A DNA stretch of 64,000 nucleotides from a virus. The translations under genes were made by a program, and so were the position numbers. Where the stretch lies: positions 17,877 to 81,876 of the IMG/VR virus record IMGVR_UViG_3300031251_000970, one strand, 5' to 3'. Shown here one piece after another: positions 46,906 through 49,900 of this stretch (the stretch's first letter is position 1; each line of letters begins with the position of its first letter). The notes below the pieces were generated by a model, which saw only the letters and a program-made list of their open reading frames with translations, ran no database searches and was not told the origin of the DNA.

Positions 46906-49900
46906 TTGGTAAATCGTGCTCCATGATGTTTGCGATCGCTGCATGCTTTAGCGGGAAGTTTTTAGCGAGTCCGCCTTCATTCTTCGCCAGTTTGTCGCGG
47001 TGGTATTTCGCGAATGCTTCCGCGAAGTCTTCCGCCGGATGAACTTTTCCGTATTCGGTCACCGGAGCTTCTTTCGACTGAGCTTTGTGATACTCGGTTC
47101 CCGGTCCCGGACTGATATTGTTCCAAATCTTTCGGGCGACAAGATGACCGATCTCGTGCAGCGTTGTTTCGATATCTGGAGTTCTGCCGCCGTAGAAAAT
47201 GATCTCGCCCGTCGAAATATTCGCCGATGCTTGAGCCTTGCATTCCGGGATTCCGTACCTCGCCGCGTAGAATGAATTCTGGCTGTTCTCCTGCTTTGAC
47301 AATCGAACTGAACTCGCATGCGGCAACAAGTCTTTAATTCTCGATGCCGATGCAAGGAACTCGGCCGCACCGCGAGAAAGTTCCGGATTGTATTGCAGTT
47401 TTATTCCACCGGCTTTGATTTCTTTCATTGCTTCCGGATTCGCTAATTGGGCATTCGGCTGGCCTTGAATGTCCTTACTCTTGCTCGCCAATTGTTTCTC
47501 GAAATGTTCAACTCTCGATTTCCACGCTGTCGGAGCGTCGATCAATGAGACTTCGTGCGATTCTCGACTCGGTTTGACCGATGTCTTTTCCGGAACCGCT
47601 GCTGTCGGAGTTTCCTTCGGCTTCTCAGCGATTGGATGACTTGGAGCGGACGAACCGCCGGACGTCCATTTTCCATCGGATGCCCTCGACTCCAATTCGA
47701 CTCCAGTCTTCACAACTGGCAAATTCTCATCTTTTTTTTCGATGGGATCACGATCGAGGATCGACATTCGCGACGGATAGACGTGTCCTTGTTCGCACTG
47801 ATCGTTTCCGCCGATTCGGCGTTCACGCATTGTGACCTCTGAACCGCAGAAGGGACATTTCCCATATGCATTCGCCGGTTCGTTTTTGACGGTGAATCCG
47901 CCATCGGCTCCAACCCCGTTCGACATTCCGAGAGATTTCCCGTTGCTTCCATTCGAATGACCATTTGCATGAGCCAATTGGCGTTCGACAACGGATTGGC
48001 GACGAATTAAATCCATCCGCTGAATCGCTTGAGATGAGTCGCCTTCTTCGATCCACTTTTTGAAATCGATCATTGTCATTGGAGTAATCGCCCCGAGTCC
48101 GTTCCAGCCTTTCGAATAGTTGCTCAAATAGGCTGATTCCGCATCGGCCGTCGAGAGAAATCCGATCATGCATTTGTGCTCGTCGAATTCTCCGGTCAAT
48201 GGATTCACTTGATCAATGATGAATACGATTTCCGATTCAGGATGCGGACCGATGAAAACATCGATGTGATCCCCATCCGCTCCGGATTGAGTTCCCTTGA
48301 GATATCCATAGTGATTTTGAAGCGTCGTCGACCACGGTTTTCCATTATGACCGATGCCGCTTCGGCTCGTTCCCTTCGCGGTTTCGATCGTGACTCGCAT
48401 TCCCTGAATCGTCACATGGCCCTTGCGATAGTTTCCCGATTCTTTCTGCGAATCGCTCGGAGTCGCGATCTTGCTTGCCGCATTCTCGATATTTCCGGAA
48501 AGAGACTTCAGTTTCGCCTCGACGATTTCATCGATCTTGCTCATCAGCAATTCTCGATCGGCGTCTTTCGCTCCCTCGATTGCCGCCATGAGCGTTTTCG
48601 ATTGTGATTCTTCCGATCGCTTGAACGGCGTTTCCGGTTCCATCGGATTCGGAGTGTCGACCGGCAATTCTGCTTCGGGAGGCTTTGGAAATCCATTCGA
48701 TTCGTCGCCGGGTTTGCTCGCATCGGCTCCCGGTTTGTCGGGACTTTTGGAAGCGGCAGAATAGAACTTTTGACCCTCAGTTCCCCCAATCGGCGGCATC
48801 TTGAATCGTGCCCGCAGTTCATCAACGCGAAACAGTTGATTCGATTGCAGCATCATCTGCCGATCCTTGGCTTCCATGTCCTCATCTTGGATTGATTCGG
48901 CTTCATACTCGATCGTTATCCCTTCTCCGAACTGTGGAGCGAGATGCGTCGTATCTGATTCGGCGAGTTTGTCGCACAGCGGCTGAATCGTCGTATGGTC
49001 CCATTGCTTCATCGCCACGATCCAAGCCGCATGACTCGAGGCCTCGTGGTATCCAACAGCGACCGGAGGAGTCGAATGCAGGGCGAGAACTGATCCCTTC
49101 GAATCCTGGAAGGCTTCCGCGTAGCACATGTCGATCGGATTTGAGCTTGTCGGAGTGATTTTCGTTCCGTTCGGAGCGAGCAAAACGCCCCCGGCATTGT
49201 TCGGCCCGGCGTGTTTCTTTTGAATCGCCGCTTGTGTGCGGTCCATGATGTCTTGGGTCGGATTCACATTCGGAGGAAGTTCCCATACGACCGTTTTGTT
49301 GATGCCGTTTTGAACGGATGCCGTTCGCGAACGATTGACCGCTTCTTCCCCGTCGATCCACAAATCTCCGGCTGCGATCGGGCTTTGATAATCGTCGAGC
49401 CAAAGCGGATGAGGGTAACCGATTTTCTGAATCTGCCGAGCGTCGACCACTCGCCCGAGAAGCTGCATCCAGCCCGGTGAACCACGGACATATCCTTCAT
49501 CTTCCATGATCGGAGCATAGCGTGAGCAATACGGCTGAATCAGGAATGATCCATAGGGCATATCCGGCGTCGGAGCCATCGGCGTGACCGCTGCCGTTGG
49601 GATCACATATCGCTGGCAGGTCGGCCCGAGCATGCTGGGGACATTCCAGACGAAAATGCAGCCCGTCAATCGCAATTGGATCGCCTGCCGATAGCGGAAG
49701 TCATAACCGCTTTCGTAGGGATTCGGCTTTTTCAGCAGAACCATCAGCGGATTGTCTTGCGGAAGATCGGTCGTCGCCTCATCTTCTTGACCATAGATCG
49801 ATTTGTAGGCCGACAGCGATCCGTATTGTCGTCGCAAACTCTTTCGACGAGATTGGTTGCTCGATTGATGCAGACCGTCAGAGAACGCCGTGACGTTCGC

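What the first reader, a model, noticed from the sequence alone, without database searches (positions are those of the whole stretch)
47888..47938. The portal polyprotein contains a copy of the mature major-capsid N-arm behind an HK97-like cleavage site
Seen: portal GK-SLGMSNGVGADGGFTV versus MCP MK-AVQGMSEGIGADGGFTV (37837-37890), with 12 of 14 residues identical. Most codons differ at synonymous positions (GGA/GGG, GCC/GCG, GAT/GAC, TTC/TTT, ACC/ACG, GTC/GTT), so the peptide rather than the DNA is conserved. Established: this segment is the start of the mature HK97-fold capsid after delta-domain removal, HK97 itself is cut at K-SLG, and N-arms bind neighbouring subunits. Inference: molecular mimicry. 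The peptide either fills N-arm sites left vacant at the portal vertex or anchors the downstream Zn-finger/peptidase cargo to the inner shell. I know of no description of this arrangement.
Basis: partly seen in the sequence, partly recalled or inferred. Interest (0 to 1): 0.85.

Follow-up and report, generated by a model that had tools for sequence, protein, structure and literature searches.

The report
Capsid-junction peptide copied into portal cargo
A phage portal protein that drags enzymes into the head carries a conserved short copy of the spot where the shell protein is trimmed, most likely so that the head protease cuts the cargo loose there.

Summary
Portal fusion residues 736-752 and capsid protein (MCP) residues 144-161 share 12 of 14 residues (BLASTP E 3e-4), and 8 of the 11 identical non-Met codons differ synonymously.

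It is not chance. 13 of 58 related proteins carry K-S-L-G-M-S-x3-G-x-D-G-G-F. All 13 have a Zn ribbon beside it; none of the 45 others does.

The motif also occurs twice in one portal fusion and in two proteins with no portal domain. In seven portal/MCP pairs, cognates match better than non-cognates (P 0.034 and 0.0046).

An HK97-gp4-like protease gene lies directly upstream of the MCP gene. HK97 gp5 is cut at K103|S104 in K-SLG.

Best reading (confidence 0.5): the motif copies the MCP maturation junction and serves as a prohead-protease processing signal between cargo domains. No cleavage has been measured.

Capsid docking is not excluded.

This scan noted the same kind of copy earlier on other DNA (e1-5976040, e1-5985797, e1-6048603); I did not check those notes.

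The parts
46892..50143 (-). Portal-cargo fusion gene (1083 aa): portal, Pro-rich linker, InPase, junction-copy peptide, Zn ribbon, second tag, zincin peptidase
   Evidence: ORF and translation; Pfam domains; 57 further proteins with E<=0.001, all but one (P0061, InPase only) with a portal domain
48806..49774 (-). Portal domain (residues 124-446)
   Evidence: PF04860, E 8.8e-27; TIGR01537 portal_HK97, weak
48047..48451 (-). InPase domain of polyvalent proteins (residues 565-699)
   Evidence: PF18823, E 5.3e-54; portal-InPase fusions are described in PMC5512222 (passages read)
47888..47938 (-). The finding: K736-SLGMSNGVGADGGFTV752, a copy of the MCP maturation junction; predicted cut K736|S737
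   Evidence: It is conserved in 19 copies in 18 proteins. It lies in a coil of pLDDT<50 spanning residues 698-757
47783..47857 (-). Zn ribbon C763-x2-C...C-x3-H787, always paired with the peptide
   Evidence: Regex association 13/13 versus 0/45 (Fisher P 3e-13). The AF2 model has three strands at pLDDT 66-80. A profile search found more than 1000 mostly small stand-alone relatives
47660..47674 (-). Second shared tag (..R-x-S-D-G-K-W-T-S-G..) downstream of the Zn ribbon
   Evidence: The same tag occurs at 44698-44712 and 31441-31455, and in relatives' extensions
46988..47167 (-). C-terminal HEIGH zincin-like metallopeptidase (about residues 993-1052)
   Evidence: PF07737, E 1.2e-5 / 3.2e-6; PF15887, weak. 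HExxH at residue 996
36946..38319 (-). Major capsid protein, HK97 family, with an N-terminal delta-like region of about 144 aa
   Evidence: PF05065, E 8.4e-31; TIGR01554, E 1.9e-43. The AF2 model matches HK97-fold capsids at Foldseek E down to 2e-13
37837..37890 (-). MCP junction K144-AVQGMSEGIGADGGFTV161, the original of the copied peptide
   Evidence: It is conserved in 110 of 121 MCPs examined. It lies in a coil of pLDDT<50 (residues 141-159) between the delta-region helices and the fold body
38347..39783 (-). Prohead protease candidate (478 aa): N-terminal HK97-gp4-like domain, acidic linker, helical tail
   Evidence: phrog_80, 7e-8; NF045541, 3e-5. A homologue lies directly upstream of the MCP gene in 12 related loci. 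H92 and S150 are invariant and align with H65 and S114 of HK97 gp4

Best explanation
The 17-residue peptide is a conserved short linear motif, K-S-L-G-M-S-x3-G-x-D-G-G-F-x-V. It copies the place where this phage group's major capsid protein passes from its removable N-terminal region into the HK97-fold body.

It sits in a flexible linker of a portal-borne polyprotein, which is built into the procapsid as part of the portal ring.

Proposed mechanism (inferred, not measured): the HK97-gp4-type prohead protease encoded just upstream of the MCP gene trims the MCP at K144|A145. It recognises the look-alike and cuts the portal fusion at K736|S737 in the same maturation step. That would free a 347-residue piece (Zn ribbon plus zincin peptidase) inside the head, available for ejection with the DNA. 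The portal-InPase part would stay behind or be cut elsewhere.

The peptide and the Zn ribbon that always accompanies it travel as one cassette among head-packaged polyvalent proteins.
For: **Shown**
- The motif recurs in 13 of 58 portal-family proteins, at positions from 515 to 1365 and always between recognisable domains.
- It recurs in 5 of the 144 further proteins returned by a profile search. One of these has two copies (residues 862 and 1058). Two have no portal domain: 2H-motif-Zn ribbon-LPD1 and 2H-motif-Zn ribbon. Repeated inter-domain use is what polyprotein processing sites look like.
- Lys precedes the G-M core in 19 of 19 copies, at -3 in 16 and at -4 in 3. S-L follows in 17-18. 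HK97 gp5 is cut in exactly K|SLG.
- A protease candidate lies directly upstream of the MCP gene in the window and in 12 related loci. Its invariant His92 and Ser150 align with H65 and S114 of HK97 gp4.
- The protease homologues themselves keep K-S-L (residues 211-213) and K-S-F-L (residue 385 on), and the MCP delta region has a conserved K-S-L.
- In AF2 models both copies lie in low-confidence coil between folded parts: portal 698-757, MCP 141-159.
- Cognate portal and MCP motifs are more alike than non-cognate ones in 7 pairs: identity 75 versus a permutation mean of 70.9, P 0.034; BLOSUM62 P 0.0046.
- In one record the MCP has the portal's spacing (K-AL-GMS). In another the portal has the MCP's spacing (K-TAV-GMS).
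- Only 1 of the 13 motif-bearing portals has HExxH, so the fused zincin cannot be the general cutter.

**Established elsewhere**
One prohead protease can cut MCP, portal and ejection proteins at one motif, as SPN3US gp245 does at AXE (PMC10052503, passages read).
Against: - No cleavage has been measured for any member, and the MCP's own cut site is inferred.
- Seventeen conserved residues are far more than a protease subsite needs. In some relatives the likeness runs on to P-E-F (P0184, P0189, P0005, P0013).
- In 16 of 19 cargo copies the Lys is one residue closer to the G-M-S core than in 90 of 110 MCPs. One rigid binding groove therefore cannot read both the Lys and the core in the same register.
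- In four relatives only about 65-110 residues (Zn ribbon plus tail) follow the motif, so cutting would release very little.
- The strict pairing with a Zn ribbon is not explained by a cleavage role.
- The protease assignment rests on weak scores: hhalign E 0.018, and no Pfam hit even at E<=5.
- The co-variation test has only 7 pairs.
Confidence: 0.5

Rival explanations
1. N-arm mimic that binds the shell. With or without cutting, the peptide docks by strand addition onto MCP subunits where a capsid N-arm start would lie. It thereby tethers or loads cargo on the inner capsid surface, or fills sites left empty next to the portal.
For: - The conserved stretch is long and covers the start of the mature MCP rather than only the cut site. 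In several relatives it continues through P-E-F or P-E-L.
- Co-variation with the cognate MCP fits binding as well as it fits cutting.
- Portal-less carriers (P0189, P0190) would need some loading signal.
- There is precedent for a non-MCP arm joining an MCP sheet at the portal vertex: the PVP protein of phage P74-26 (PMC12407722, passages read).
Against: - 45 of 58 related proteins do without the peptide although their MCPs keep the junction. It is therefore not a structural need of this portal vertex.
- Its distance from the portal domain is variable and sometimes very long. One chain has two copies, and it occurs without a portal. These speak against filling a fixed number of vertex sites.
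- The window's own copy lacks P-E-F.
- There is no similarity beyond the peptide.
Confidence: 0.2
2. Leader of the Zn ribbon. The peptide and the Zn ribbon form one functional unit, for example one that binds DNA, the protease or the delta region. The likeness to the MCP reflects a shared partner, not a shared cut.
For: - The pairing is perfect: 13/13 versus 0/45. It holds in 18 of 19 copies overall.
- The cassette sits at the very C-terminal end in four relatives.
- The Zn ribbon belongs to a large family of small stand-alone proteins, so it is a unit in its own right.
Against: - The linker between peptide and ribbon varies from about 10 to 35 residues, and in P0018 the ribbon lies upstream.
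- In the AF2 model the peptide does not pack on the ribbon.
- The stand-alone ribbons examined lack the peptide: only 5 of the 144 new profile hits have it.
- One copy in P0185 has no ribbon after it.
Confidence: 0.12
3. Self-processing site of the fused zincin. The C-terminal HEIGH metallopeptidase of the same polypeptide cuts at the motif, as proposed in general for polyvalent proteins.
For: - Iyer et al. 2017 propose that zincin-like peptidases process polyvalent proteins (PMC5512222, passages read).
- The window's protein has such a domain.
Against: - 12 of the 13 motif-bearing portal relatives have no HExxH at all.
- This reading gives no reason for the site to copy the MCP.
Confidence: 0.05
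4. Chance likeness or a dead relic of recombination between the capsid and portal genes.
For: - A single 14-residue match at E 3e-4 in one pair of proteins is weak on its own, given the many pairs in a 64-kb window.
- The G-G-F-x-V core is common in HK97-family MCPs.
Against: - There are 19 copies in 18 proteins that are otherwise only 30-45% identical, with near-invariant K, S-L, G-M, G, D-G-G-F.
- Synonymous codon differences show the likeness is kept at the peptide level.
- The motif is tied to the Zn ribbon.
Confidence: 0.02

Closest known systems
Shared prohead-protease motifs in MCP, portal and ejection proteins: SPN3US gp245 at A-x-E (PMC10052503, passages read); T4 gp21 at L/I-x-E (recalled)
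   Same: One head protease would cut the shell protein, the portal protein and internal cargo at sites that look alike, inside the procapsid.
   Different: Those motifs are three residues long, sit behind N-terminal propeptides, and belong to T4-type proteases. Here a 15-22-residue copy of the MCP junction sits between domains of a C-terminal portal extension in an HK97-gp4-type system. It is coupled to a Zn ribbon, and no cut has been measured.
HK97 gp5 delta-domain removal at K103|S104 by gp4
   Same: The local sequence K|S-L-G is the same. The capsid fold is the same. The protease candidate's invariant His and Ser align with those of gp4.
   Different: The HK97 portal gp3 gene (nt 2056-3330, about 424 aa) is annotated as a plain portal protein; I did not examine it further. 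That the aligned His and Ser are the catalytic residues is recalled. The MCP here reads K-A-[IV]-Q, not K-S-L. MCP sequence similarity to HK97 is too low for hhalign to align the N-arm.
Polyvalent proteins fused to portal or MuF domains (Iyer et al. 2017, PMC5512222; passages read)
   Same: Portal plus InPase, 2H phosphoesterase and zincin peptidase architectures, predicted to be packaged and injected. The window's protein is a member by domain content.
   Different: The passages found contain no Zn ribbon (0 occurrences of four spellings) and no capsid-like peptide. That paper proposes processing by the fused zincin, not by the prohead protease. Its supplementary architecture files could not be seen.
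Capsid targeting sequences: T4 IPIII CTS and the P1 DarB N-terminal signal (PMC9024508, passages read)
   Same: A short peptide that governs the fate of head-internal cargo. In T4 it is removed by the head protease.
   Different: Those signals are N-terminal, and I know of no likeness to their MCP (recalled, not checked). The portal fusion needs no targeting, because the portal itself is built in.
Portal vertex protein (PVP) N-arm of phage P74-26 (PMC12407722, passages read)
   Same: A non-MCP arm joins an MCP beta-sheet on the inside of the shell at the portal vertex.
   Different: PVP is a separate protein sitting outside the pore. The passages read report no sequence copy of the MCP and no link to cargo or cleavage.

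Membership tests
Polyvalent portal-fusion proteins (Iyer et al. 2017) | Portal domain followed in one polypeptide by effector domains of the polyvalent repertoire | tested here: met
   PF04860 at 124-446, PF18823 InPase at 565-699, and a zincin at about 993-1052. Relatives carry 2H, GNAT, topoisomerase IB and LPD1 domains.
Substrate site of an HK97-gp4-type prohead protease | A protease of that family is encoded in the head module | tested here: inconclusive
   The matches are weak: phrog_80 7e-8, NF045541 3e-5, hhalign E 0.018 with His and Ser aligned, and no Pfam hit. The position directly upstream of the MCP gene is conserved in 12 loci.
Substrate site of an HK97-gp4-type prohead protease | Lys at P1 with a small then an aliphatic residue after it, as at HK97 gp5 K103|S104 | tested here: met
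   K in 19 of 19 copies, S in 17, L in 18. HK97 site confirmed.
Substrate site of an HK97-gp4-type prohead protease | Site lies in an exposed, flexible segment inside the procapsid | tested here: inconclusive
   The motif lies in a coil of pLDDT<50 (residues 698-757), but the whole model is poor (mean pLDDT 48). An interior location follows from its position C-terminal to the portal domain, which is established knowledge of portal topology (recalled).
Substrate site of an HK97-gp4-type prohead protease | Protease-dependent cleavage at the site | not testable with these tools
   This needs virion or procapsid proteomics, or co-expression.
HK97-fold MCP N-arm | The peptide continues into the conserved x-P-E-F and the HK97-fold body | tested here: not met
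   The window's copy reads ..GGFTVKNEP. P-E-F is present in 110, 110 and 106 of 110 MCPs. There is no further portal-MCP similarity. About 10 of the 19 cargo copies keep a P-E/P-D nearby.
HK97-fold MCP N-arm | Binds neighbouring MCP subunits | not tested
   The one co-folding job gave no verdict (see Tried and rejected). A binding assay or cryo-EM is needed.
T4/P1-type capsid targeting sequence | N-terminal peptide sufficient to load a foreign protein into the head | tested here: not met
   The position is internal, residues 515-1365 in portal fusions and 186-206 in the portal-less proteins. Sufficiency for loading cannot be tested here.

The most novel reading that the evidence does not exclude
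The peptide is a two-step load-and-release code for HK97-type heads. As a look-alike of the first ~20 residues of the mature shell protein, it first docks cargo (portal-borne or free) onto the assembling MCP lattice, much as cargo-loading peptides do in encapsulins. It is then cut at the Lys by the same protease that trims the MCP, leaving cargo fragments with the same N-terminal peptide as the shell protein. If so, the packaged and injected protein cargo of uncultured HK97-type phages could be read from sequence by looking for copies of each phage's own capsid junction.
Probability: 0.2. Interest if true: 0.8.

Novelty: new variant of a known kind. Interest (0 to 1): 0.55.

Why it matters
Phages inject proteins as well as DNA. 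How cargo is loaded and freed in HK97-type heads, which lack a separate scaffold core, is largely unknown.

A cargo signal copied from the phage's own capsid junction would do three things:
- give a rule, readable from sequence, for finding head-internal effectors such as anti-defence enzymes in uncultured phages;
- define the specificity of a large, poorly studied protease family;
- offer a handle for loading foreign proteins into capsids.

The strict coupling to a widespread small Zn ribbon of unknown function also points to a new injected protein family.

Tried and rejected
**Steps that led nowhere**
- **Co-folding.** I sent two copies of MCP residues 162-457 with portal residues 722-800. 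The result was 'no answer' (scores 0.00 and 0.01; mark 0.32; controls not run). It is neither support nor evidence against binding.
- **Aligning the MCP family to HK97 gp5.** hhalign aligned only the middle of the fold. PDB sequence searches with the MCP or its profile did not reach HK97. The equivalence of the junction with HK97 S104 therefore rests on the local motif, the Pfam/TIGRFAM start points and the fold models, not on a residue-level alignment.
- **Degenerate DNA pattern for the motif.** In viral contigs it gave 4 stretches: 3 already known and 1 chance hit. In metagenome contigs it gave 12 stretches: 2 clear ones (L066, L071), 1 possible one on a 1215-base contig (L068), and 9 that lie outside real ORFs or form a repeated unrelated element. 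No new portal/MCP pair resulted.
- **Portals without the motif.** In 8 loci holding both a motif-less portal and an MCP, no shared peptide appeared. The best hit at the junction was 8 of 18 residues, E 0.85, in L001.
- **Cultured phages.** tblastn of the portal fusion against 50,697 phage records found no record covering 80% of it. The hits were almost all to the InPase domain.
- **Function of the Zn ribbon.** PHROGs and Pfam gave nothing for the Zn ribbon.
- **T5 precedent.** My recollection that the T5 portal is trimmed by its head protease could not be confirmed in the one paper found.

**Literature.** Searches found no description of a capsid-junction copy in a portal or cargo protein. Supplements were closed, and subscription journals are not in the library.

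**Pairs I could not make.** I could not fetch the contigs of P0007, P0009, P0012, P0013, P0030, P0051, P0057, P0184, P0185, P0189 and P0190. Their MCPs are unknown. Whether P0189 and P0190 are complete genes next to head genes is also unknown.
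Full report
**1. The observation**

Both genes lie on the minus strand.
- ORF 46892-50143(-) encodes a 1083-aa protein. Pfam finds a portal domain (124-446, E 8.8e-27), an InPase domain of polyvalent proteins (565-699, E 5.3e-54) and a weak zincin match around a HEIGH motif (993-1052).
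- ORF 36946-38319(-) is an HK97-family major capsid protein (MCP): PF05065 from residue 157 and TIGR01554 at E 1.9e-43.
- Portal residues 736-752 read K-SLGMSNGVGADGGFTV. MCP residues 144-161 read K-AVQGMSEGIGADGGFTV.
- BLASTP finds this one segment and nothing else: 12 of 14 identical, E 3e-4.
- Of the 11 identical residues that have a choice of codon, 8 use different codons.
- The six frames of the window hold no third copy.

**2. It is a conserved element, not a coincidence**

*Portal relatives.* A search of the large protein collection with the portal fusion listed 58 proteins (the query itself plus 57), of 598-1884 aa. All but one (P0061, InPase only) have a portal domain.
- Thirteen of the 58 carry the core G-[ML]-x6-[DENSG]-G-G-[FYM], at positions from 515 to 1365.
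- All 13 also have a C-x(1-2)-C...C-x(1-4)-[CH] pattern within about 20-40 residues: 12 downstream, and one (P0018) upstream.
- None of the 45 motif-less proteins has such a pattern after residue 450 (Fisher P 3e-13).

*Profile search.* I built a profile of the peptide-plus-ribbon cassette from five DNA-referenced copies and searched 1.84 billion representatives. It gave 1063 hits at E<=0.001.
- Most hits are small stand-alone Zn-ribbon proteins without the peptide.
- Among the 144 new proteins in the best 150, five carry peptide plus ribbon.
- P0183 (2231 aa) carries the cassette and resembles the L041 portal fusion; I did not scan its domains. Two are portal-2H fusions (P0184, P0185).
- P0185 has two copies, at 862 and 1058. 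The first has no ribbon after it.
- P0189 (2H, peptide, ribbon, LPD1) and P0190 have no portal domain.

*Consensus.* Over all 19 copies in 18 proteins the counts are K 16 at -3 (3 at -4), S 17, L 18, G 19, M 17, S 17, x3, G 19, x, D 15, G 19, G 19, F 17.

**3. The original in the MCP**
- Of 121 MCPs examined (the window's plus the best 120 of 759 relatives), 110 fit the core followed by x-[VILAM]-x-P-[ED]-[FYW]. Their consensus is K-A-[IV]-Q-G-M-S-E-x-[IV]-G-x-D-G-G-F-x-V-x-P-E-F.
- The AF2 model of the MCP (mean pLDDT 65) has helices up to residue 136, a low-confidence coil at 141-159 that holds the motif, and then the body.
- About 300 columns of the body align with mature HK97-fold capsids: RcGTA, T5, HK97.
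- A cut after K144 would leave 313 residues.
- HK97 gp5, fetched from NC_002167, reads ..FNK|SLGSD.. The solved mature chains cover residues 104-385. The portal copy therefore has the HK97 cut-site sequence.
- A residue-level alignment of this MCP family to HK97 failed. The MCP's own cut site remains an inference.

**4. The protease**
- ORF 38347-39783(-), 478 aa, has only weak family matches: phrog_80 head maturation protease at 7e-8, and the protease part of NF045541 at 3e-5. Pfam gives nothing even at E<=5.
- Homologues lie directly upstream of the MCP gene in 12 related loci.
- In their alignment His92 and Ser150 are invariant.
- hhalign against HK97 gp4 (E 0.018, 146 columns) puts them on His65 and Ser114. 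I recall these as the catalytic residues.
- The same alignment shows conserved K211-S-L213 and K385-S-F-L388 after the protease domain. The MCP delta region has a conserved K-S-L.
- Immediately after the Pro-rich linker, 12 of the 13 motif-bearing portals keep K-[TSA]-[LMY]-x-A-[AV]; P0007 reads K-A-S-V-L-D-A-A.
- K followed by a small and then an aliphatic residue is thus a recurring, conserved feature of the head proteins of this group.

**5. Co-variation**

I could pair seven portal motifs with the MCP of the same phage.
- The window itself.
- Three pairs by the genome search in the same record (motifs read).
- One pair confirmed both ways (P0006/P0157, matching L030/L059).
- Two pairs only by identical longest-contig length (P0010/P0065, P0015/P0112).

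Over the 14-residue core, cognate pairs sum to 75 identities, against a mean of 70.9 (sd 1.9) over all 5040 permutations. P is 0.034 for identity and 0.0046 with BLOSUM62.

Two indel-level cases point the same way. In record G003 the MCP reads K-AL-GMSEGIASDGGF beside a portal K-SL-GMSEGIGSDGGF. In G004 the portal reads K-TAV-GMS, with the MCP's spacing.

The sample is small and the phages' relatedness was not corrected for.

The two classes are also each conserved in their own right. Cargo copies read K-SL-G-M-S. MCPs read K-A[IV]Q-G-M-S-E, with the Lys one residue further out in 90 of 110.

**6. Structure of the portal fusion**
- AF2 with 13 sequences gave a poor model overall (mean pLDDT 48).
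- The portal core and the Zn ribbon are folded (residues 760-798, pLDDT 66-80, three strands).
- Residues 698-757, which hold the motif, are coil at pLDDT<50 and do not pack on the ribbon.

**7. Reading**

The simplest account of a Lys-led copy of the MCP maturation junction is a processing signal for the prohead protease, which works in the same compartment on the original. The features that point to this are:
- its place in flexible linkers between cargo domains;
- its variable position;
- two copies in one chain;
- its presence with or without a portal domain.

The principle is known from other phages. SPN3US gp245 cuts MCP, portal and ejection proteins at A-x-E (PMC10052503, passages). T4 gp21 does likewise (recalled). 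Portal-effector fusions are also known (PMC5512222, passages).

That paper's proposal of self-processing by the fused zincin does not fit here. Twelve of the 13 motif-bearing portals have no HExxH.

I put this reading at 0.5, because three things remain unexplained:
- the length of the conserved stretch, up to 22 residues and including P-E-F or P-E-L in some relatives;
- the one-residue register shift between the Lys and the core;
- the obligatory Zn ribbon.

**8.

- 45 of 58 relatives lack the peptide, while their MCPs keep the junction.
- Carriers include portal-less proteins and a double copy.

A looser version is not excluded, and it is my most novel reading (probability 0.2): the peptide docks cargo on the MCP lattice and is then cut. 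P74-26 PVP shows that a foreign arm can join an MCP sheet at the portal vertex (PMC12407722, passages).

**9. Novelty**

My literature searches found no description of this arrangement. Supplements were closed.

Earlier notes of this scan report the same kind of junction copy in portal fusions of other genomes, and reached the same reading: e1-5976040, e1-5985797 and e1-6048603. They are unchecked AI notes and are not independent evidence. They do suggest the theme is wider than this phage group.

I class the finding as a new variant of a known kind and score its interest at 0.55.

Noticed in passing
window 47660-47674(-), 44698-44712(-), 31441-31455(-): A second shared tag, L-K-[SA]-F-N-x-S-E-x-R-x-x-G-K-W-T-S-G, occurs in three otherwise unrelated ORFs: the portal extension (divergent form), the 482-aa MuF-like/GNAT protein and a 192-aa ORF. 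G-[KR]-W-[TSA]-[SAG] also appears in the extensions of 6 of the 13 motif-bearing portal relatives (the window's own included) and 2 of the 45 others, and in P0185 and P0190. It may be another processing or loading signal.
   Followed up: partly
window 47783-47857(-); proteins P0186-P0326: The Zn ribbon (Y-G-x-C-P-x-C-G...R-E-R-R-x-N-G-N-D-x-C-x-x-G-H-x-Y-P-S) belongs to a large family. Most members are stand-alone proteins of 50-200 aa, and some hold two ribbons in tandem. There were 1063 profile hits at E<=0.001, counting hits to any part of the peptide-plus-ribbon profile. Neither Pfam nor PHROGs names a function.
   Followed up: partly
window 38347-39783(-), residues 211-213 and 385-388: The protease homologues keep K-S-L just after the protease domain and K-S-F-L near the helical tail. 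These are candidate self-cleavage sites of the same K|S-aliphatic type.
   Followed up: no
window about 48590-48600(-), portal residue K516: Twelve of the 13 motif-bearing portals keep S/N-K-[TSA]-[LMY]-x-A-[AV] right after the Pro-rich linker that follows the portal domain; P0007 reads K-A-S-V-L-D-A-A. It is a possible cut that would detach the whole extension from the portal ring.
   Followed up: no
window 44197-45645(-) and 46120-46695(-): Several genes lie between the portal and protease genes. One is a 482-aa protein with a GNAT domain and a weak portal/MuF-like PHROG match. Another is a separate 191-aa acetyltransferase. The head module is interleaved with likely cargo and accessory genes, and portal and MCP lie about 8.5 kb apart.
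   Followed up: no
protein P0185 (2132 aa), residues 862 and 1058: This is the only protein found with two copies of the junction peptide. The first is followed by the G-K-W-T-S tag and an unknown domain, the second by the Zn ribbon.
   Followed up: partly
locus L001, portal ORF residues 632-649: A motif-less portal relative has a weak look-alike of its own MCP junction: 8 of 18 residues, E 0.85. It may be a decayed copy or chance.
   Followed up: no
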